Source: Promethearchaeota archaeon
GTDB lineage: Archaea > Asgardarchaeota > Lokiarchaeia > Sigyniarchaeales > SOKP01
NCBI GenBank assembly: GCA_048940925.1
Contig: JBHLOC010000013.1
Span: 1-30,878 of the forward strand
Reading direction: 5' to 3'
DNA: 30,878 bases
Shown: piece after piece, positions 23,985 to 30,104 of the stretch
Layout: each line of letters starts with the position of its first letter
Numbering within the stretch: the first letter of the stretch is position 1
Position numbers and translations under genes: made by a program
The notes under the pieces: generated by a model
Told to the model about the DNA's origin: nothing
Database searches by the model: none
What the model saw: only the letters and a program-made list of their open reading frames with translations

Positions 23985-26027
23985 TTAAACTATAAATATT
24001 TCTGTTATAAGGGGTTCAAGAGCTGGAATATCATTTAATTCAACAATTCGGCTTGTATTATAGAATTTATTAAGCGTTTGCCATATAGGAGTAATATTAA
24101 AAATTTGTTCCGTAAATTTTCTTAATCTTTGTTTCGCTAGATACGTCTGACCTTTAAATATATAGCATACTGAAAATGTGTTAACAGTTCGTAAAAGAAT
24201 AGTATATTCTCCAAATTTTGCTCTATCAAGTCCCTTAGAAAAAAATTCTCCACTAAAAGTATTAAATGCTGTTAAAAAACTACTTAAAAGATCTTCTTCA
24301 AATGCCCACTTTTTGGAAAATTGGTTGGAAAATAAGGGAAATCCTCCTTCTCCGATAATTAGAAGTAATACAGGCACTTCATGAACTAATTTTGGTGGTT
24401 TAACTACACTTTTACCTTCCATACGATCAAAAAGCCCATCAAAAGAGGCTAATTTTATACGTTCTGACATAGGAGCATTTTCTTCCTTAAGTTTCTCCCA
24501 AACACTAACTTGTTCTAATAATTTATCATGTTCCTCTGATATTTTTAAAGCTAACAGATTAAGACCATTTAGTTCGGCAATACGTTGAGCTTGAGTTAAT
24601 AATTTCTTTGTATCATCGATTTTCATTTGGATCAATGCTAGCTTAGCTTGCAACAATTTAGTTTCTGCTAACCATAAATAGGAATGGTGCCTTTCTGCTG
24701 CTAAAAGCATTTTGCTAATTAGGGGATCTAAATCATCCAAGACTTCTTGATTATTAGTTATATTCAATTCTTCTAAGTAAAGTTCACATAGATTAATTAT
24801 TGATAGGTGATAAAGTATAGGAGCAGCAATGTCAGTTGAAATAATTTTATTTAGCAATTTTTCAGCGTCTGTAAGATATCGAATTCGACCACTTTTTTTC
24901 CATACTAATGCCTTAGCTATTTGATATGCCTGAGTAAACGCTTTGCTTTCTGTTTTATTAGTTACTATCTCTAACTTTCCTAAATATTGTTTTGCCCTCT
25001 CAAGATTATTTTTATCAAGATTAATCAAAACTAAATGTAAAAGGGAAGAAAGTATTCCATAAGGGAATCCAAACTTTTCAGAAAATGCAAGGCAGCGTTC
25101 TACACTCTCTAATGCCTTATTAAAGTCACCCTTCATCCTATATGTATTTCCAATACTTAATAAGTTTAATGCTAATTCATTAGTATATCCTTCTTTTTCT
25201 GCTAGAATAACAGACCGGTTATTATATCTTAATGCTCGATCTAATTCACCTCTATTTTTATAAACAGCTCCTATAGTATTTAAAACTTCAATTTTTGTGA
25301 GAATATTAATTTCTTTAATCAATAAACTCTTTTTGCTTAACTTCAATGCACGATTGAAATCCCCTTTTACATAATAGATAAGACCAATCAGTGACAAACT
25401 CGTTGCAATACCAACTTGATTACTTAATTTTTCTTGTGAATTTAAACTCTTTATGGCATACTCTAAAGCAGAATCATGTTCGCCTTTATACACATAAATA
25501 TACCCAATTTCAAAATAGATACGTGCAAGATCTAATATTTTACCGATTTGTTTTCCAATTTCTAAACATTCTAATGCTAAATCTAAAGCCTTATCGAGAT
25601 CATCTTGTAAACAATATTCATGTGTTTTAATTAAAAAAAGTTCCAGTTTAAGTCTTAAGAAATCTGGGTAGGATTTATTAGTAATAGAATCAAATATTTT
25701 CTCAGCTTCTAAAACAAGTTCATGTCCTTTCTTAAAATTTCCTAAGAATATAATGTGAGCTTTAATTATAAGAGCATCAAGGTATTCAGGACCTTCTTTA
25801 TGTTTTTGACTCATAAGATAGGCATGGTCCCCAAATTCTATCGCCCTTTTAAAAAACCCATTATTACAATATATCCTACCTTTTAAAATAAGTAAAGCAA
25901 GTTGGTCTTTAGAAGATATTCCTTCTCTTTCTTCGAATTTTGTAAGGATCTCAAGTGCATCCTCAAATCTACCTTTATACATCAAACTTTCTGCATTTAT
26001 TAATTCCTCTGATTTTGAATTGGACAA
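23985..26027 (-). CDS. tetratricopeptide-repeat protein with a C-terminal longin/roadblock-like domain
   Basis: Several TPR units (IGYIYVYKGEHDSALEY, IGLIYYVKGDFNRALKL, IGAVYKNRGELDRALRY, IGNTYRMKGDFNKALES); alpha/beta tail VLLLIIGEGGFPLFS...LLSSFLTAFNTF. TTG start uncertain; the tail fold is inference. Confidence 0.8.
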   Translation of the reverse strand: MSNSKSEELINAESLMYKGRFEDALEILTKFEEREGISSKDQLALLILKGRIYCNNGFFKRAIEFGDHAYLMSQKHKEGPEYLDALIIKAHIIFLGNFKKGHELVLEAEKIFDSITNKSYPDFLRLKLELFLIKTHEYCLQDDLDKALDLALECLEIGKQIGKILDLARIYFEIGYIYVYKGEHDSALEYAIKSLNSQEKLSNQVGIATSLSLIGLIYYVKGDFNRALKLSKKSLLIKEINILTKIEVLNTIGAVYKNRGELDRALRYNNRSVILAEKEGYTNELALNLLSIGNTYRMKGDFNKALESVERCLAFSEKFGFPYGILSSLLHLVLINLDKNNLERAKQYLGKLEIVTNKTESKAFTQAYQIAKALVWKKSGRIRYLTDAEKLLNKIISTDIAAPILYHLSIINLCELYLEELNITNNQEVLDDLDPLISKMLLAAERHHSYLWLAETKLLQAKLALIQMKIDDTKKLLTQAQRIAELNGLNLLALKISEEHDKLLEQVSVWEKLKEENAPMSERIKLASFDGLFDRMEGKSVVKPPKLVHEVPVLLLIIGEGGFPLFSNQFSKKWAFEEDLLSSFLTAFNTFSGEFFSKGLDRAKFGEYTILLRTVNTFSVCYIFKGQTYLAKQRLRKFTEQIFNITPIWQTLNKFYNTSRIVELNDIPALEPLITEIFIV

Positions 26028-26181: not shown

Positions 26182-28401
26182 TTATTTATTATATAAATTA
26201 CTTGGTTTATAGATAAAATCTTTTAAATTATAAATTGATTTAATTAATCTAGCTGGTTTACTTGTATCATATTTCTTTTTATAATCACAATATTCTTGAG
26301 ATGATAAGGGGGATGGGAATAAGCACTTAATACAAGTTTCCTTTTCAATACAACTTATACAATTCCTTCTTTCTATTTCAATTTTCTGTAAAATTTGAAG
26401 ATTTTGCATGAGTGCTGGGAAGGGTGTTTCAATATCTCCTATAGGATCTGAGTTCCAACAAATTCGTATAGAATTATTATTATCTATTATAGCAGTCTCT
26501 AATTTTTGACAGTTTGCATCTTTAGAAGTCCATCTACAAAGTTTTTCAATTTCAGGTGGTACATTATTCTTTAGAAGATAATTATAACTATCTTCCATTT
26601 TTGAGATTCTATTTAAAAAACTTAAAAGTGTTATAGTATCATAATACGTATGTTCTGTGCAAATTGTGTTACCCACATTATTATTTTCTTCCTCATATTC
26701 TTGTAAAACTGATTTAGTGTCTTTTATTTTAATCAATAATCCAGTCTTTTTACCTATAGAATGCTGTCTTCCTGATTTTAAAGTATTATTTTCCCAATAA
26801 TAACCATGATAATACATTGTAGGAGATAACTCTTCATAAAGAGATATTTCATTCTTCTTATGGTTTTTTTCATATTTTACTTTATTCGGATATAATTGAA
26901 TAATAGCTCCATTTATCGCAAGATTTTCTTGTATCCAATTTATTAATAATGGACTTAAAGTGTCAGAATTAATTATTAAGTTATTGAAGAAAGGTTTCTT
27001 ATTTTTCCGTCTAGTGTCTAATGATAAAATTTTAAGATTCATATAGTCAATTATTCTATTATTTTTTTCTGTAGCGGAATTAGGAGCCAATTTTAATTTG
27101 TATATATCAAATGGAAAGCTATTTTGCGTGAATATCTTATTTTGTTGACCTAGTGGTTTAACCTTATAACCAAATTGTTTATAAATTTGATAAATAGGAG
27201 TACCTTTAAATATGTGAAAAATATTATGTGAGTAAAAATCTAAATCTAATTGTTTAACTAGTTTTAATGTTTTTTGGGCGTCTTGAAGAGATTCACTTGG
27301 TAAACCTACCATAATGCTTACATAAACAGGACATAGTCCAATTTTTTTGGCATAAGTGGTCATCTTTTTTAGTTTCTCAATGAAAGTATGTTCTTTATCA
27401 AGACTTTCTAAAGATTGAGGAGGATTTACCTTACCTATTGCTCTTAAAACTCTCGGCACCGCACTTTCTAATGAAAATCCTATTGAAACAAATCCGGCTT
27501 CCTTCATTAAATCTAGTAATTCTTCATTAATTTTATCACATCGGGTAATACAAGATAAGGGAAGCTTAATATCATTTTCAATGATTCTTTCACAGATTTG
27601 TTTTGTCCTTGAAGGTATTATTGTAAAAGTATCATCATTTATAGGAACAGGTGCAATAGAATTTCTATATTCATTAAGGTACATTAATTCTTTTATTACT
27701 CTTTCTATTGAATGAAAAAATATATTCCTTTTACTCATTATTGCACAATTGCAATATATACAATTTTGATTACATCCCCTTGCAGTAATTATCCCTGTAG
27801 GAGAAGCATAAGATGGGGGGATAATTTCTGAAAGATACGGCGAGGGATATTTGTCCAAATAATTTTTAGTATATCGATTTGAAAGTAAAATATTGCTATC
27901 TGGATTCACAATTAAATTTTTTCTTTTTCTAAAAGTTATACCATTAATATTATCTAAATTGGTTTGATCCAATTTAAAATCATTTTTAGAGAAAGCGGAT
28001 AACAAAAGAACCATAATCTCTTCGCCTTCACCTCTTACGCAAATGTCAATGCTTGAAACACTATCCAAAATTTCTCTAGACTGCACAGTTGGAGTAGGTC
28101 CACCAAAAATTATGATAATTCTAGAACTATAAGCTTTTAATCCTTTACTAATCAATACACACTGCATATAATTTTTTTCATAAACTGTAAATCCAACAAT
28201 TTTAGGTCTAAAGCCTATTATCTTTTTAACACATTCTCTAACATTAAATGACTCATTTGAGATAAATTGCTTCGCAGTAAAACCTTTTTCTTTTAAATAA
28301 GCAATAATATATGCTGATCCCAAATTATATTGAAAATTAGATGAGTTTAAATCACCACCAGAAGGAAATAGCATTAATAGATTAATAGATCTCTCATTCA
28401 A
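26182..28401 (-). CDS. B12-binding radical SAM enzyme with a C-terminal SPASM-like Cys cluster; candidate peptide maturase
   Basis: B12 domain (LGSAYIIAYLKEKG, IVGFTV, IFGGPTPT, VRGEGE), ARGCNQNCIYC (CxxxCxxC), DDTFT, FSLES, MVGLPSES, GTPIY; eight Cys in the last 118 aa including Cx2Cx5Cx2Cx11C. TTG start with GGAGTGA 6 nt upstream. Confidence 0.9.
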   Translation of the reverse strand: MNERSINLLMLFPSGGDLNSSNFQYNLGSAYIIAYLKEKGFTAKQFISNESFNVRECVKKIIGFRPKIVGFTVYEKNYMQCVLISKGLKAYSSRIIIIFGGPTPTVQSREILDSVSSIDICVRGEGEEIMVLLLSAFSKNDFKLDQTNLDNINGITFRKRKNLIVNPDSNILLSNRYTKNYLDKYPSPYLSEIIPPSYASPTGIITARGCNQNCIYCNCAIMSKRNIFFHSIERVIKELMYLNEYRNSIAPVPINDDTFTIIPSRTKQICERIIENDIKLPLSCITRCDKINEELLDLMKEAGFVSIGFSLESAVPRVLRAIGKVNPPQSLESLDKEHTFIEKLKKMTTYAKKIGLCPVYVSIMVGLPSESLQDAQKTLKLVKQLDLDFYSHNIFHIFKGTPIYQIYKQFGYKVKPLGQQNKIFTQNSFPFDIYKLKLAPNSATEKNNRIIDYMNLKILSLDTRRKNKKPFFNNLIINSDTLSPLLINWIQENLAINGAIIQLYPNKVKYEKNHKKNEISLYEELSPTMYYHGYYWENNTLKSGRQHSIGKKTGLLIKIKDTKSVLQEYEEENNNVGNTICTEHTYYDTITLLSFLNRISKMEDSYNYLLKNNVPPEIEKLCRWTSKDANCQKLETAIIDNNNSIRICWNSDPIGDIETPFPALMQNLQILQKIEIERRNCISCIEKETCIKCLFPSPLSSQEYCDYKKKYDTSKPARLIKSIYNLKDFIYKPSNLYNK

Positions 28402-28506
28402 TAATAATCACTCCATGGATTATATGTCTCAGTAAATTATTAGGATTTAAAGTTTTCTTTTCAATATGCCTTGCTTAAGGAAATTTTATTTCTAGTAATG
28501 ATATAG

Positions 28507-28534
28507 AAAAATAAAATATTGAAAACAAAAAAAA
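28507..28534 (-). terminator. T-rich tract between the small peptide gene and the radical SAM gene
   Basis: Minus strand reads TTTTTTTTGTTTTCAATATTTTATTTTT about 17 nt after the peptide stop. Confidence 0.45.
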
Positions 28535-28551
28535 TGATTATATTTGAAATT

Positions 28552-28770
28552 TTATCCTCCTAAAGTCACCCACCATGAAAGAATACCAAAAATCTTTGTT
28601 AATTCTTCAGGTGTTAAATCTCGAACCTGCGCTTTAAGTTGTTTTTCAACTTCAGCACTTAAACTAGCTCCTGTCAATTCTGGGTGTTCTCTAACAGTAT
28701 CAATTATAATTTTTGCTATACGATCACCCAATTTTTCCTTAATATTTTTCTCAAATGCATTATCTGACAT
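28552..28770 (-). CDS. 72-aa putative RiPP precursor peptide
   Basis: GGAGA RBS; charged, probably helical N-region; DLTPEELTKIFG leader motif; hydrophobic C-terminal ILSWWVTLGG; co-oriented 150 nt upstream of the radical SAM gene. Confidence 0.65.
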   Translation of the reverse strand: MSDNAFEKNIKEKLGDRIAKIIIDTVREHPELTGASLSAEVEKQLKAQVRDLTPEELTKIFGILSWWVTLGG

Positions 28771-28831
28771 TTATTCTATCTCCAAAATTTGTGAATTTCG
28801 CTAAATAATCTTATATTATATTATTATGATG

Positions 28832-28860
28832 CAATATTTTACTGTATATATAAAATATTG
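28832..28860. promoter_or_regulatory. inverted repeat overlapping a TATA-like box upstream of the peptide gene
   Basis: CAATATTTTA-N9-TAAAATATTG; the minus strand contains TTTTATATATA. Confidence 0.45.
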
Positions 28861-28979: not shown

Positions 28980-29537
28980 TTATAGTTCTGCAGATAATCC
29001 CTTATTTTTTTTATATAATGTATTAATAATTGCATTAAAAGCTTTAATAACTCCTTGACCCGTTTTTGCTGAGGTTATATAATAACCAAAAAAACTCTTT
29101 TTTTCAACTATTTCTTTAATAGCGGATCGATTTATATTGTTTTCATCTATTAAATCAACTTTATTAGCAAACACGACAATAGGAATATTTCCACAATAAT
29201 GATTTACATCTTGCTGCCAGTCTGATATATGGTTAAAACTATCCTCCCCAAGTTTGTTCTCCTCTAAGCTATATACAATAATAGCAGCCTTACTGCTTCT
29301 AAAAAAGGAAGGACGTAAAAAGTGAAAATTATCTTGGCCAGCTATATCCCAAAATAAGAGTCTAATCTGATCACCTTCCATTTCTTTATCAAAGACAGAA
29401 AATTGTGCTCCAATTGTTTTAATATAATCTTTAATGAAAGAACTTTCTGTAAACTTTTTAATTAAAGTTGTTTTACCAACCCTTCCATCACCAACAACAA
29501 CAATCTTAAAACTAAATTTACGTCTTCTCTCTTTCAT
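28980..29537 (-). CDS. Rab/Ras-like small GTPase (Asgard eukaryotic-signature type)
   Basis: G1 GDGRVGKT, G2 YIKTIG, G3 WDIAGQ, G4 NKVD, G5 TSAK; no C-terminal prenylation Cys. Confidence 0.93.
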   Translation of the reverse strand: MKERRRKFSFKIVVVGDGRVGKTTLIKKFTESSFIKDYIKTIGAQFSVFDKEMEGDQIRLLFWDIAGQDNFHFLRPSFFRSSKAAIIVYSLEENKLGEDSFNHISDWQQDVNHYCGNIPIVVFANKVDLIDENNINRSAIKEIVEKKSFFGYYITSAKTGQGVIKAFNAIINTLYKKNKGLSAEL

Positions 29538-29849: not shown

Positions 29850-30104
29850 TTAGTAAAGTCCGTAATTCCTATAGTAAATGTTTCTTTTAACTTTATCAAC
29901 ACTAAAAACTTCTTCTAAATATTTCGCGTTATATTTTGCTTTCTTTAATAATTTTGACAAAGCTCTTTTGATTGGTTTTTCCTCTGCCTTAACTTTCACT
30001 ACTTCATATTCCCCTTCTAGTGGGGGGAGCTCTTCTAAAATAATTATTTCTTCAATTTTGATTGGCTCCTTAAGAGCTTTTTTCTCGATTAAAACTTCAA
30101 CCAT
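29850..30104 (-). CDS. hypothetical protein (84 aa, acidic N-half and basic C-half)
   Basis: Strong GGGGTGA RBS, host-like codon usage and a downstream terminator; no family recognised. Confidence 0.7.
   Translation of the reverse strand: MVEVLIEKKALKEPIKIEEIIILEELPPLEGEYEVVKVKAEEKPIKRALSKLLKKAKYNAKYLEEVFSVDKVKRNIYYRNYGLY

What the first reader, a model, noticed from the sequence alone, without database searches (positions are those of the whole stretch)
26182..28860. Candidate archaeal RiPP system: Trp-Trp core precursor plus B12-radical SAM maturase
Seen: a 72-aa ORF with a good RBS lies directly upstream of, and co-oriented with, a B12-binding radical SAM gene. Its segment L52-TPEE-L57-TK-I60-F-G62 reproduces the L(-12)/L(-7)/I(-4)/G(-2) spacing of double-glycine, Nif11 and NHLP leaders (ELSxxELxxVxGG). 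A compositionally distinct core, (I)LSWWVTLGG, follows. Known: cobalamin-dependent radical SAM enzymes methylate RiPP building blocks or residues (TsrM on Trp C2, PoyC on Val C-beta), and rSAM-SPASM enzymes crosslink Trp in peptides. Inference: this is a minimal two-gene peptide-modification system in an Asgard-like archaeon, acting on the WW/V/T core. I do not know of a described example. The -1 residue is Ile rather than Gly/Ala/Ser and no C39 transporter is nearby, so the motif may serve enzyme recognition rather than cleavage and export.
Basis: partly seen in the sequence, partly recalled or inferred. Interest (0 to 1): 0.88.

Follow-up and report, generated by a model that had tools for sequence, protein, structure and literature searches.

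The report
Undescribed peptide plus radical-SAM modification system
A 72-residue peptide gene and the large radical-SAM enzyme gene after it form a conserved pair in Loki-type Asgard archaea and several bacterial phyla, which looks like an uncharacterised peptide-modification (RiPP-like) system whose enzyme has an unusual domain combination.

Summary
On the minus strand, a 72-aa ORF (28552-28770) lies 150 nt upstream of a 739-aa B12-binding radical SAM gene (26182-28401).

All 22 orthologous enzyme loci in related Asgard genomes, and most bacterial loci read, carry a co-oriented 57-100 aa ORF just upstream.
- These ORFs are homologous. A profile built without the window peptide finds it at E 2.9e-9.
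- They share a roughly 50-aa helical leader and a short, variable, hydrophobic C-terminal tail.
- Across 101 related genomes, all 24 strong peptide matches lie next to the enzyme.
- Four metagenomic peptides sampled at random were again followed by the same enzyme.

- Trp-Trp is not conserved. One aromatic in [WFYH]-x-[T/S]-Φ-Gly-COOH is.
- The double-glycine pattern is not conserved, and no C39 peptidase was found in the genome.
- The system is not Asgard-specific.

The enzyme is odder than described. After the B12 and radical SAM domains come a cysteine-free radical-SAM-like barrel and a SPASM-like domain with eight invariant Cys.

The chemistry is unknown. I favour B12-dependent C-methylation, with an aromatic-to-Cβ crosslink second. 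I found no description of this family.

The parts
28594..28770 (-). Leader part of the 72-aa peptide (about residues 1-59). It is a helical domain with the pattern h-K-E-x-h-G-x3-A-x2-h-h...G-x2-L, shared by archaeal and bacterial relatives.
   Evidence: Alignment and jackknife profiles. Profile A4 recovers it at E 2.8e-12. The ESM Atlas model is a small helical bundle with pTM 0.60. GGAG lies 9 nt before the ATG.
28555..28593 (-). Putative core or tail (about residues 60-72, IFGILSWWVTLGG). It holds the family motif aromatic-x-Thr/Ser-hydrophobic-Gly at the C-terminus (W67-V-T-L-G, plus one extra Gly here).
   Evidence: 20 of 31 distinct archaeal tails match [WFYH]x[TS][VILA]G(x)?-COOH. The tail is identical in the 76%-identical homologues apart from the extra Gly, with only synonymous codon changes.
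28522..28534 (-). Oligo-T tract (T8-G-T4) 18 nt after the peptide's stop codon, inside the 150-nt spacer. It may be an archaeal termination or attenuation signal between the peptide and enzyme genes.
   Evidence: Read directly from the sequence. Its function is inferred, not tested.
28003..28332 (-). B12-binding (Rossmann-like) domain of the 739-aa enzyme, residues 24-133.
   Evidence: Pfam PF02310 at 54.1 bits against a cut-off of 32.1. Many columns are invariant across 37 homologues. The model superposes on CysS, TokK, TsrM, MgmA and OxsB.
27256..27792 (-). Radical SAM core, residues 204-382, with C210-x3-C214-x2-C217. C219, C270 and C284 are conserved as well.
   Evidence: Pfam PF04055 at 63.6 bits. 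Cys conservation is 22/22 in Asgard orthologues and 17/17 when bacterial homologues are included.
26602..26994 (-). Cysteine-free alpha/beta region (about residues 470-600). In the model it superposes on the radical SAM barrel of SPASM-type enzymes, so it looks like a degenerate second barrel.
   Evidence: Model of residues 430-739 has pLDDT 82.6. The top 11 of 48,161 chains are all radical SAM enzymes, aligned over model residues 37-300. There is no conserved Cys in this stretch.
26272..26556 (-). SPASM-like domain (about residues 616-710) with eight invariant Cys: C622-x8-C631-x16-C648 ... C681-x2-C684-x5-C690-x2-C693-x11-C705.
   Evidence: Invariant in 22 Asgard orthologues and in 29-37 metagenomic homologues; kept in 15 of 17 sequences of the set that includes bacteria. 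TIGR04085 (SPASM) gives sub-threshold hits in 11 of 37 members and is the only recurring family. Fold matches include PqqE, SuiB, anSME, TigE, ChlB and CteB.
23985..26027 (-). 680-aa TPR protein with an unassigned C-terminal alpha/beta domain. It is the conserved downstream neighbour of the enzyme in Asgard loci, and its role is unknown.
   Evidence: Pfam TPR hits. A member of the same protein cluster lies next to the enzyme in 22 Asgard loci, downstream in 20. Among the many paralogues, the best orthologues (E below 1e-200) all sit next to the enzyme.
28980..29537 (-). 185-aa Ras/Rab-like small GTPase. It is a conserved upstream neighbour in most Asgard loci, and a link to the system is only suggested by synteny.
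   Evidence: Pfam Ras at 1.9e-40. It is 83% identical in the homologous contig L028. Cluster c2 is present in 14 loci.

Best explanation
The 72-aa ORF encodes the precursor, or substrate, peptide of the 739-aa enzyme encoded 150 nt downstream. Together they are one member of an undescribed RiPP-like family found in Lokiarchaeia-type Asgard archaea and several bacterial phyla.

The peptide has a folded helical leader of about 50 aa, conserved from archaea to bacteria. I infer that the leader docks on the enzyme. It is followed by a short, hydrophobic, lineage-variable C-terminal tail. In Asgard peptides the tail usually ends in aromatic-x-Thr/Ser-hydrophobic-Gly-COOH; here it is W-V-T-L-G-G.

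The enzyme has a single catalytic radical SAM site (C210/C214/C217) next to a B12-binding domain. These are followed by a cysteine-free radical-SAM-like barrel and a SPASM-like domain whose eight invariant Cys probably hold two auxiliary [4Fe-4S] clusters.

What is shown: the gene pairing, the homology of the peptides, the leader-versus-tail conservation pattern and the domain make-up.

What is inferred: the enzyme modifies the tail by radical chemistry. My preferred reaction, at about 45%, is cobalamin-dependent C-methylation of one or more tail residues at or near the conserved aromatic/Thr positions. In that case the SPASM-like clusters would act as a built-in electron path. Second, at about 30%, is an aromatic-to-Cβ crosslink of the triceptide type on the aromatic-x-T/S motif.
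For: - **Pairing in Asgard genomes.** All 22 full-length orthologues (44-66% identity) in related genomes have a co-oriented 62-100 aa ORF ending 64-216 nt upstream. Three loci carry two tandem copies.
- **Pairing in bacteria.** Bacterial homologues at 37-41% identity mostly have a 57-89 aa upstream ORF as well, twice in tandem.
- **Peptide homology.** An archaeal profile built without the window peptide finds it at E 2.9e-9, and finds 7 of 10 bacterial peptides at E of about 1e-3 or better.
- **Exclusive co-occurrence.** Profile A4 run over 101 related genomes gives 24 hits at E of 9e-10 or better, and every one lies just upstream of the enzyme gene. No such hit appears in genomes without the enzyme.
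- **Wider distribution.** Against 1.84 billion representative proteins, A4 finds 162 clusters, and 145 of the best 150 are 60-117 aa. Four of these sampled for context gave 8 places. Six have the B12-binding plus Radical_SAM gene of 733-766 aa (one cut at 480 aa) directly downstream, one is cut by a contig end, and one has a different gene there.
- **Selection.** dN/dS is 0.45-0.5, and the tail is held by synonymous changes only.
- **Enzyme class.** Pfam B12-binding and Radical_SAM score above their cut-offs. Foldseek top hits are CysS, TokK, TsrM, MgmA, OxsB and AprD4. The nearest named family is ApyD, a RiPP B12-rSAM that β-methylates the penultimate Tyr of its peptide (10.1101/2023.10.30.564719).
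- **SPASM-like part.** Eight Cys are invariant in Asgard orthologues and kept in nearly all bacterial homologues. TIGR04085 is the only recurring hit, in 11 of 37 members. The structure search of the C-terminal half ranks PqqE (Z 6.6, rmsd 4.8, 213 aligned), SuiB, anSME, TigE, ChlB and CteB on top.
- **Corrinoid supply.** The genome holds 19 B12-binding domains, including about ten corrinoid-protein-sized ORFs, so the organism plausibly uses corrinoids.
Against: - No modification has been observed, and no RNA data set holds the locus.
- No leader peptidase or exporter is conserved. An M4 peptidase is adjacent in only 2 loci.
- The leader is long and folded, which is unusual though known for NHLP-type RiPPs.
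- The SPASM assignment is below family cut-offs: Pfam gives no hit, TIGR04085 scores at most 22.9 bits against a cut-off of 27, and fold Z-scores of 5-6.6 lie in a range the tool calls common.
- Cobalamin binding is untested. AprD4, the best sequence match among solved structures, is to my knowledge a B12-domain enzyme that works without cobalamin.
- CobS, CbiB and a PduO-type adenosyltransferase were not found in the genome, so any corrinoid must be imported.
- A few loci have divergent tails lacking the motif (L032, L036, L041, L066). In one genome (G027) the upstream ORF was not recognised by the profile.
Confidence: 0.75

Rival explanations
1. The pairing is the same, but the reaction is an oxidative crosslink rather than methylation. 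The conserved aromatic residue would be joined to Cβ of the residue two positions later (Thr/Ser), as in three-residue cyclophanes (triceptides). The SPASM-like clusters would take up the electron.
For: The aromatic-x-T/S motif sits at the C-terminus in 20-24 of 31 archaeal tails, and one bacterial tail repeats H-I-V three times. Triceptides are defined by aromatic-to-Cβ links on Ω1-X2-X3 motifs (PMC11499958). The triceptide synthase ChlB and other crosslinking SPASM enzymes are among the top fold matches of the C-terminal half. Eight Cys are invariant. B12-rSAM enzymes are reported to do C-S, C-P and C-C chemistry besides methylation (10.1101/2023.10.30.564719).
Against: The only radical SAM cluster motif lies in the class-B module, whose nearest characterised relatives are methyltransferases. 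The barrel attached to the SPASM-like domain has no Cys motif. Many bacterial tails lack a clear aromatic-x-x pattern.
Confidence: 0.25
2. The small protein is not a substrate but a dedicated partner of the enzyme, for example a chaperone, an electron or metal carrier, or a regulatory subunit.
For: The N-terminal 50 aa look like a folded helical domain. Many Asgard members carry twin CX3C motifs that could bind a metal. No peptidase or exporter is conserved nearby.
Against: The variable part is the C-terminal tail and the conserved part is the N-terminal domain, which is the pattern of precursors. Tandem gene copies differ mainly in the tail region (L037, L043, L080). The twin CX3C is absent from the window peptide and from the bacterial ones.
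Confidence: 0.1
3. The peptide is the precursor of a small redox cofactor, as PqqA/PqqE and MftA/MftC are.
For: It is a short peptide followed by a radical SAM enzyme with a SPASM-like domain. PqqE is the top fold match of the C-terminal half. The modification site would be at the extreme C-terminus, as in MftA (from my own knowledge).
Against: The tails differ widely between lineages (WVTVG, FITVG, NYETIGR, IFVSIG, bacterial YGFIIP, CAIFLS and so on), whereas to my knowledge cofactor precursors keep invariant reacting residues. The system is patchy, present in about 21 of 53 genomes of the genus. No PqqB/C/D-like or MftB/D/E-like genes were seen nearby.
Confidence: 0.05
4. The peptide is a double-glycine-type (bacteriocin-like) peptide, cleaved after G62-I63 and exported.
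For: The spacing L52/L57/I60/G62 in this one peptide resembles ELSxxELxxVxGG. The hydrophobic positions 57 and 60 are conserved as hydrophobic in relatives.
Against: G62 is not conserved, and no GG/GA/GS pair precedes the tails. No NHLP, Nif11 or other leader model is hit by any of 33 members. No Peptidase_C39 match was found in a genome that is 100% complete by marker genes.
Confidence: 0.03

Closest known systems
ApyA/ApyD of aminopyruvatide biosynthesis (NCBIfam NF050148, rSAM_ApyD)
   Same: It is a RiPP system in which a B12-binding radical SAM enzyme acts on a residue close to the peptide's C-terminus, and ApyD β-methylates the penultimate Tyr. It is the best named-family hit of the enzyme (E 3e-29).
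   Different: The score of 102 bits is far below the 750-bit cut-off and covers only the B12 and rSAM part. ApyD has an RRE and no SPASM-like domain. The precursor families are unrelated. The Apy cluster also needs P450 and MNIO enzymes, which are absent here.
Class B (cobalamin-dependent) radical SAM methyltransferases with solved structures: CysS, TokK, TsrM, MgmA/QCMT
   Same: The order is N-terminal B12-binding Rossmann domain followed by a radical SAM barrel. They are the top structural matches of the full model (E 7e-16 to 2e-14).
   Different: Sequence identity is only 15-19%. To my knowledge none of them carries a second barrel-like region plus an 8-Cys SPASM-like domain. Most act on small molecules or a large protein rather than on a dedicated precursor peptide.
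SPASM-domain peptide maturases (PqqE, SuiB, CteB, anSME, TigE, the triceptide synthase ChlB)
   Same: [quoted passage not shown] They are the top fold matches of residues 466-730.
   Different: In those enzymes the barrel in front of the SPASM domain is the catalytic one and there is no B12 domain. Here that barrel has lost its cluster motif, and catalysis must come from the upstream class-B module. The Pfam SPASM model is not matched.
Triceptides and Haft's FxSxx-COOH system (FxsA/FxsB/FxsT)
   Same: The substrate motif is aromatic-x-small/hydroxy residue near or at the C-terminus. Those clusters include a TPR protein, and NCBIfam has HaaT and FxSxx-COOH TPR models, which the window's TPR protein hits weakly. 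The triceptide definition is in PMC11499958.
   Different: The maturase class differs. The TPR similarity is generic (31 and 19 bits against cut-offs of 1125 and 300). The resemblance to FxSxx-COOH rests on my recollection of that motif and was not tested with sequences.
NHLP/Nif11 'protein-like leader' RiPP precursors (proteusins and relatives)
   Same: They have a long, structured leader followed by a short core, and B12-rSAM C-methyltransferases (PoyB/PoyC) act on hydrophobic cores in proteusins (from my own knowledge).
   Different: None of 33 peptides hits the NHLP or Nif11 models. There is no double-glycine cleavage motif and no C39 transporter.

Membership tests
RiPP-type precursor/maturase system (generic) | A small precursor gene lies next to the modifying-enzyme gene, and this holds across the family | tested here: met
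   22 of 22 Asgard orthologue loci and most bacterial loci. All 24 strong peptide hits in 101 genomes lie next to the enzyme. 6 of 8 metagenomic places.
RiPP-type precursor/maturase system (generic) | The precursor is bipartite, with a conserved leader and a variable core | tested here: met
   The alignment and profiles match the N-terminal 50-60 residues across domains, while the tails vary.
RiPP-type precursor/maturase system (generic) | The core is post-translationally modified | not testable with these tools
   This needs co-expression and mass spectrometry.
RiPP-type precursor/maturase system (generic) | A leader peptidase and/or exporter is present in the cluster | tested here: not met
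   None is conserved. An M4 peptidase is adjacent in only 2 loci, and no C39 peptidase was found in the genome. Many RiPP clusters also lack these genes, so the feature is not strictly defining.
Class B (B12-binding) radical SAM enzymes | An N-terminal B12-binding domain plus a radical SAM domain with CX3CX2C | tested here: met
   PF02310 at 54.1 bits (cut-off 32.1) and PF04055 at 63.6 bits (cut-off 29.5). C210/C214/C217 are invariant. Fold matches to CysS, TokK and TsrM.
Class B (B12-binding) radical SAM enzymes | The enzyme binds and uses cobalamin | not testable with these tools
   There is only indirect context: 19 B12-binding domains in the genome, but CobS, CbiB and a PduO-type transferase were not found.
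SPASM/twitch radical SAM subgroup | A C-terminal 7-8 Cys motif (CX9-15GX4C ... CX2CX5CX3C ... C) matched by the SPASM models | tested here: inconclusive
   There are eight invariant Cys with similar but not identical spacing (CX8C-X16-C ... CX2CX5CX2C-X11-C). Pfam gives no hit. TIGR04085 is below cut-off in 11 of 37 members. No PDB sequence hit.
SPASM/twitch radical SAM subgroup | The fold resembles solved SPASM enzymes | tested here: inconclusive
   The top 11 VIA matches are all radical SAM enzymes: PqqE Z 6.6 (rmsd 4.8, 213 aligned), SuiB 6.4, anSME 6.1. Foldseek E-values are 0.02-0.2. The ranking is consistent but the scores are moderate.
ApyD family (NF050148) | The score reaches the equivalog cut-off | tested here: not met
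   101.9 bits against a cut-off of 750.
Double-glycine / NHLP / Nif11 leader peptides | A match to the leader models and a conserved GG/GA/GS cleavage site | tested here: not met
   No such model is hit by any of 33 members. G62 is not conserved.
Double-glycine / NHLP / Nif11 leader peptides | A C39 peptidase-domain transporter is present | tested here: not met
   PF03412 was not found in the window's genome, which is 100% complete by marker genes.
Triceptides (three-residue cyclophane RiPPs) | An Ω1-X2-X3 motif is present in the core | tested here: met
   [WFYH]x[TS] precedes the C-terminal hydrophobic-Gly in 20 of 31 archaeal tails. The motif is short, so this alone is weak.
Triceptides (three-residue cyclophane RiPPs) | The maturase is a canonical rSAM-SPASM 3-CyFE, and an aromatic-to-Cβ crosslink is formed | not testable with these tools
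   The catalytic module here is class B. The crosslink needs MS and NMR.

The most novel reading that the evidence does not exclude
The modified peptide is a signal rather than an antibiotic. In Asgard archaea it would be read by the orthologous TPR protein that always follows the enzyme gene, and coupled to the Ras/Rab-like GTPase encoded just upstream. That would form a peptide-ligand to TPR receptor to small-GTPase pathway in a close relative of eukaryotes.

Bacterial versions of the same peptide/enzyme pair sit instead beside hybrid sensor kinase-phosphatases or TPR proteins. The enzyme itself would be the first described fusion of a cobalamin-type radical SAM module with a SPASM-type auxiliary-cluster module.
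Probability: 0.12. Interest if true: 0.9.

Novelty: new variant of a known kind. Interest (0 to 1): 0.72.

Why it matters
In the literature held here I found no described RiPP from Asgard archaea. I also found no described radical SAM enzyme that joins a B12-binding class-B module to a SPASM-like two-cluster module; the reference classification keeps those two subgroups apart.

This locus gives a compact, testable pair of one 72-aa peptide and one enzyme. About 160 sequence clusters of natural variants span two domains of life, so substrate rules and chemistry could be mapped quickly.

If the reaction is new, for example methylation supported by built-in electron-transfer clusters or a B12-assisted crosslink, it widens radical SAM enzymology. 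If the conserved TPR and GTPase neighbours take part, it bears on how small-GTPase signalling is wired in the archaeal relatives of eukaryotes.

Tried and rejected
- **Single-sequence search with the 72-aa peptide.** It found only two close homologues and weak hits in related genomes. The recurring 82-88 aa ORFs among those weak hits are not family members (E 0.02-0.6 with the family profile).
- **Pfam and NCBIfam on the peptide family.** No recurring family was found. DUF6364 at E 0.053 is noise, and three Tim10-type hits reflect twin CX3C motifs.
- **ESM Atlas look-alikes of the peptide.** Only generic helical bundles came back.
- **PDB sequence search with a profile of the Cys-rich domain.** Nothing meaningful.
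- **Pfam on the isolated C-terminal domain.** No SPASM hit.
- **Foldseek on the C-terminal half.** No match at E of 0.001 or better, although the weak top rows are SPASM enzymes.
- **Literature.** Searches for Asgard or Lokiarchaeal RiPPs, for B12 plus SPASM enzymes and for Bacteroidales RiPP mining returned nothing describing this family.
- **Not done.** Peptide and enzyme could not be co-folded, and model coordinates could not be inspected. The distance between the SPASM-like Cys and the active site is therefore unknown.
- **Chance ORF.** This reading is rejected on homology and selection.


Full report
**What is at the coordinates**

Both genes lie on the minus strand.
- A 72-aa ORF at 28552-28770 starts with ATG and has GGAG 9 nt upstream.
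- After a 150-nt spacer comes a 739-aa ORF at 26182-28401, with a TTG start preceded by GGAGTGA.
- The spacer begins with an oligo-T tract (28522-28534).
- Pfam finds a B12-binding domain (residues 24-133, 54.1 bits) and a Radical_SAM domain (residues 204-382, 63.6 bits) in the large protein, and nothing significant in the small one.
- Upstream lies a Ras-family GTPase (28980-29537). Downstream lies a 680-aa TPR protein (23985-26027).

**Is the small ORF real?**

A direct search finds only two close homologues (76% identity, 71 aa, ending ...GILSWWVTLG). Two of the three contigs that carry them continue into an orthologue of the enzyme (87% and 67% identical). The third ends at the peptide's stop codon and, like one of the others, shows an orthologue of the GTPase upstream (83% identical).

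Between the window and these contigs, dN/dS of the peptide gene is 0.45-0.5. The last ten shared codons differ only at two synonymous sites. The ORF is therefore a conserved coding gene.

A six-frame search of 100 related genomes finds 22 full-length orthologues of the enzyme (44-66% identity, about 745 aa). Twenty-one are in the window's genus, one of them split over two contigs. The other is in a second family, in the genome that the named-contig scan identifies as Candidatus Lokiarchaeum ossiferum.

Every one of these loci has a co-oriented ORF of 62-100 aa ending 64-216 nt upstream of the enzyme gene, and three loci have two tandem copies.

A scan of named genomes adds more Asgard loci, labelled Promethearchaeota, Hod-, Hermod- and Thorarchaeota. 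Unexpectedly, it also adds full-length homologues at 37-41% identity in Bacteroidales, Aminicenantes, Desulfobacteraceae and others. Most of those bacterial loci also have a co-oriented 57-89 aa ORF just upstream, and one has two tandem copies.

**The upstream ORFs are one family**

- The aligned ORFs share an N-terminal domain of about 50 residues, with the pattern ...T-h-K-E-h-h-x3-h-G-x3-A-x2-h-h-x2-I...G-x2-G-x2-L..., followed by a short tail.
- A profile of the archaeal peptides built without the window sequence finds the window peptide at E 2.9e-9. It finds seven of ten bacterial peptides at E of about 1e-3 or better. The bacterial profile finds six archaeal ones at E below 0.01.
- Run over 101 related genomes, the family profile (A4) gives 24 hits at E of 9e-10 or better. 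Comparison with the enzyme coordinates shows that all 24 lie directly upstream of the enzyme gene. Genomes without the enzyme give only weak hits (E above 1e-3) inside large unrelated ORFs.
- Against 1.84 billion representative proteins, the profile finds 162 clusters, and 145 of the best 150 are 60-117 aa. Their sequences show the same conserved leader and very different short tails.
- I looked up the genomic context of four of these. Of eight places, six show a B12-binding plus Radical_SAM gene directly downstream (733-766 aa, or cut at 480 aa and 44% identical to the window's enzyme). One is cut by the contig end. One has a RACo-like gene instead.

**What the tails look like**

Of 31 distinct archaeal tails, 20 end in [WFYH]-x-[T/S]-[V/I/L/A]-G, optionally followed by one more residue. 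Relaxing the Thr/Ser position raises this to 24. Examples are GHWVTVG, GYWATVG, MGFITVG, NYETIGR, IFVSIG, QWISLGG and the window's WWVTLGG.

Trp-Trp is therefore a local variant, and the conserved element is a single aromatic residue two positions before a hydroxy residue. Bacterial tails differ more (YGFIIP, GCAIFL(S), LGFVIAVP, HIVPHIVAPHIVMP and others) but are again short, hydrophobic and rich in β-branched residues.

- The hydrophobic positions L57 and I60 are conserved as hydrophobic, probably as an amphipathic helix before the tail. G62 aligns with S, L or M.
- None of 33 peptides hits an NHLP, Nif11 or other leader model.
- No C39 peptidase domain was found in the genome.

**The enzyme**

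The CX3CX2C motif (C210, C214, C217) is invariant.

The full-length model (pTM 0.83) matches cobalamin-dependent radical SAM enzymes best: CysS, TokK, TsrM, MgmA, OxsB and AprD4, at E 7e-16 to 2e-11. The best named family is ApyD (E 3e-29, but 102 bits against a cut-off of 750). ApyD is a RiPP B12-rSAM that β-methylates the penultimate Tyr of its precursor.

Residues 430-739 are not covered by those matches.
- They contain eight Cys that are invariant in 22 Asgard orthologues and 37 metagenomic homologues, and kept in nearly all bacterial homologues: C622-x8-C631-x16-C648 ... C681-x2-C684-x5-C690-x2-C693-x11-C705.
- From my own knowledge, this spacing parallels the SPASM pattern, which binds two auxiliary [4Fe-4S] clusters.
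- Sequence support is weak but specific. The SPASM model TIGR04085 is the only family that recurs, in 11 of 37 members, with best E 8e-5 on the isolated domain. All hits are below cut-off.
- A separate model of residues 430-739 (pLDDT 82.6) gives SPASM enzymes as the weak Foldseek top rows: CteB, anSME, TigE, ChlB and SuiB.
- In the Foldseek-independent search of 48,161 chains, the top eleven are all radical SAM enzymes: PqqE (Z 6.6, rmsd 4.8, 213 aligned), SuiB (6.4), anSME (6.1), TigE (6.0), ChlB (5.8) and CteB (5.7), followed by BtrN, MoaA, SkfB, BlsE and viperin.
- These alignments span model residues 37-300 and almost the whole target chains. The Cys-free alpha/beta stretch (about residues 470-600) therefore superposes on their catalytic barrel, and the Cys-rich stretch on their SPASM or twitch domain.

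I read the protein as a class-B module fused to a degenerate radical-SAM barrel plus a SPASM-like domain. The Z-scores are moderate, so membership of the SPASM subgroup stays inconclusive. The consistency of the ranking is the argument for it.

RadicalSAM.org treats B12-binding and SPASM/twitch enzymes as separate megaclusters, and I found no paper describing the combination.

**Mechanism**

Shown: the pairing, the peptide homology, the leader/tail conservation pattern and the domain content.

Inferred: the helical leader docks on the enzyme, possibly on the degenerate barrel, and the C-terminal tail enters the single radical SAM active site beside the B12 domain.

I rank the possible reactions as follows.
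- **C-methylation, about 45%.** The catalytic module's relatives are methyltransferases, including one acting next to a peptide C-terminus. The B12 domain is highly conserved. The organism has many corrinoid proteins, although it lacks CobS and CbiB and must import corrinoids. The two extra clusters could serve as an internal electron path for re-reducing the cofactors. That last point is speculation.
- **Aromatic-to-Cβ crosslink on aromatic-x-T/S, about 30%.** This is suggested by the motif, by the definition of triceptides and by the auxiliary-cluster domain, which is typical of oxidative crosslinking enzymes.
- **Other chemistry, the remainder.**

**Context**

In Asgard loci the order is GTPase, peptide(s), enzyme, TPR protein, with little variation. 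The TPR protein belongs to a very large paralogous family in this genus, with hundreds of matches. The best orthologues (E below 1e-200) are exactly those next to the enzyme.

Bacteroidales loci have a different TPR protein of about 700 aa beside the pair. Aminicenantes-type loci have a hybrid sensor (Reg_prop, Y_Y_Y, HisKA, HATPase, receiver, SpoIIE) directly upstream. Signal-transduction genes thus recur beside the pair in three lineages. This suggests regulation by, or signalling through, the peptide, but that is only a lead.

A quick tree places the bacterial enzymes as one clade beside the main Asgard clade, with Lokiarchaeum ossiferum outside both. This fits a single inter-domain transfer of uncertain direction. 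I did not test it further.

**Verdict**

Three sequence-level details (Trp-Trp core, double-glycine spacing, Asgard-only) are not supported, and the two-gene reading is doubtful.

The system appears undescribed. It combines a new leader family with an unusual enzyme architecture, so I rate it a new variant of a known kind. No biochemical evidence exists yet.

Another first-stage note on the same stretch (e1-5591561) had independently flagged the B12 plus 8-Cys combination, and my tests agree with it.

Noticed in passing
L061:2132-2377, L064:1550-1801, L062:2077-2331 and other Asgard peptide genes: Many Asgard leaders carry twin CX3C motifs (for example ECIQECI...LKDCIEKCL), and three of them weakly hit the Tim10/DDP zinc-finger model. 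The window's peptide and the bacterial peptides have no Cys in the leader.
   Followed up: partly
window 23985-26027 and its paralogues genome-wide: The 680-aa TPR protein belongs to a massively expanded family in this genus. At least 11 matches per genome were scored in many genomes, and more than 400 matches were found in 64 genomes. Its C-terminal roughly 150-aa alpha/beta domain has no Pfam match.
   Followed up: partly
window 29850-30104 (minus strand); L065, L067, L070 upstream regions: An 84-aa protein (MV[QE]VL...EELP...KYNA.YL...YRN...) is conserved upstream of the peptide in many Asgard loci. So is a second small protein with the motif KRALKRWKQSFSYY. Neither has a family hit, and their function is unknown.
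   Followed up: no
L081:2-2185, L111:3-3704, L115:1149-5780, L116:2-2647: In Aminicenantes-type bacterial loci, a hybrid sensor (Reg_prop, Y_Y_Y, HisKA, HATPase_c, Response_reg, SpoIIE phosphatase) lies directly upstream of the peptide gene and is co-oriented with it.
   Followed up: partly
L080:4538-6079 and L069:336-2003: A thermolysin-type M4 metallopeptidase lies next to the pair in one Aminicenantes locus and one Asgard locus. It is a candidate leader peptidase, but it is not conserved elsewhere.
   Followed up: no
L079 (three copies), L083, L115:6260-10781, L116:3127-7648: Some bacterial loci carry two or three tandem paralogues of the 740-aa enzyme behind a single peptide gene.
   Followed up: no
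L114:2799-4183: One contig carries the same 70-aa peptide as L113, but it is followed by a gene with RACo (reductive activator of corrinoid proteins) domains instead of the enzyme.
   Followed up: no
P0045 (755 aa), P0096 (242 aa), P0076, P0147: A few long, apparently secreted proteins contain 3-7 tandem repeats that match the leader profile. The leader fold may therefore derive from, or be related to, a wider small helical repeat domain.
   Followed up: no
whole genome G000: CobS, CbiB and a PduO-type adenosyltransferase were not found, although the genome has 19 B12-binding domains, about ten of them in ORFs of corrinoid-protein size. The organism probably depends on imported corrinoids.
   Followed up: partly
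G029:C46:11394-11555, G012:C87:45836-45997, G025:C132:4173-4334, G075:C84:9659-9820: A recurring ORF of about 375 aa gives weak hits (E about 3e-3 to 6e-3) to the leader profile away from the enzyme. It is probably noise or a distant helical similarity, and I did not examine it.
   Followed up: no
window 28555-28560: The window's peptide ends in Gly-Gly (GGA GGA TAA), whereas its two closest homologues end in a single Gly (GGA TAA). One other Asgard peptide (L075) also ends in LGG.
   Followed up: yes
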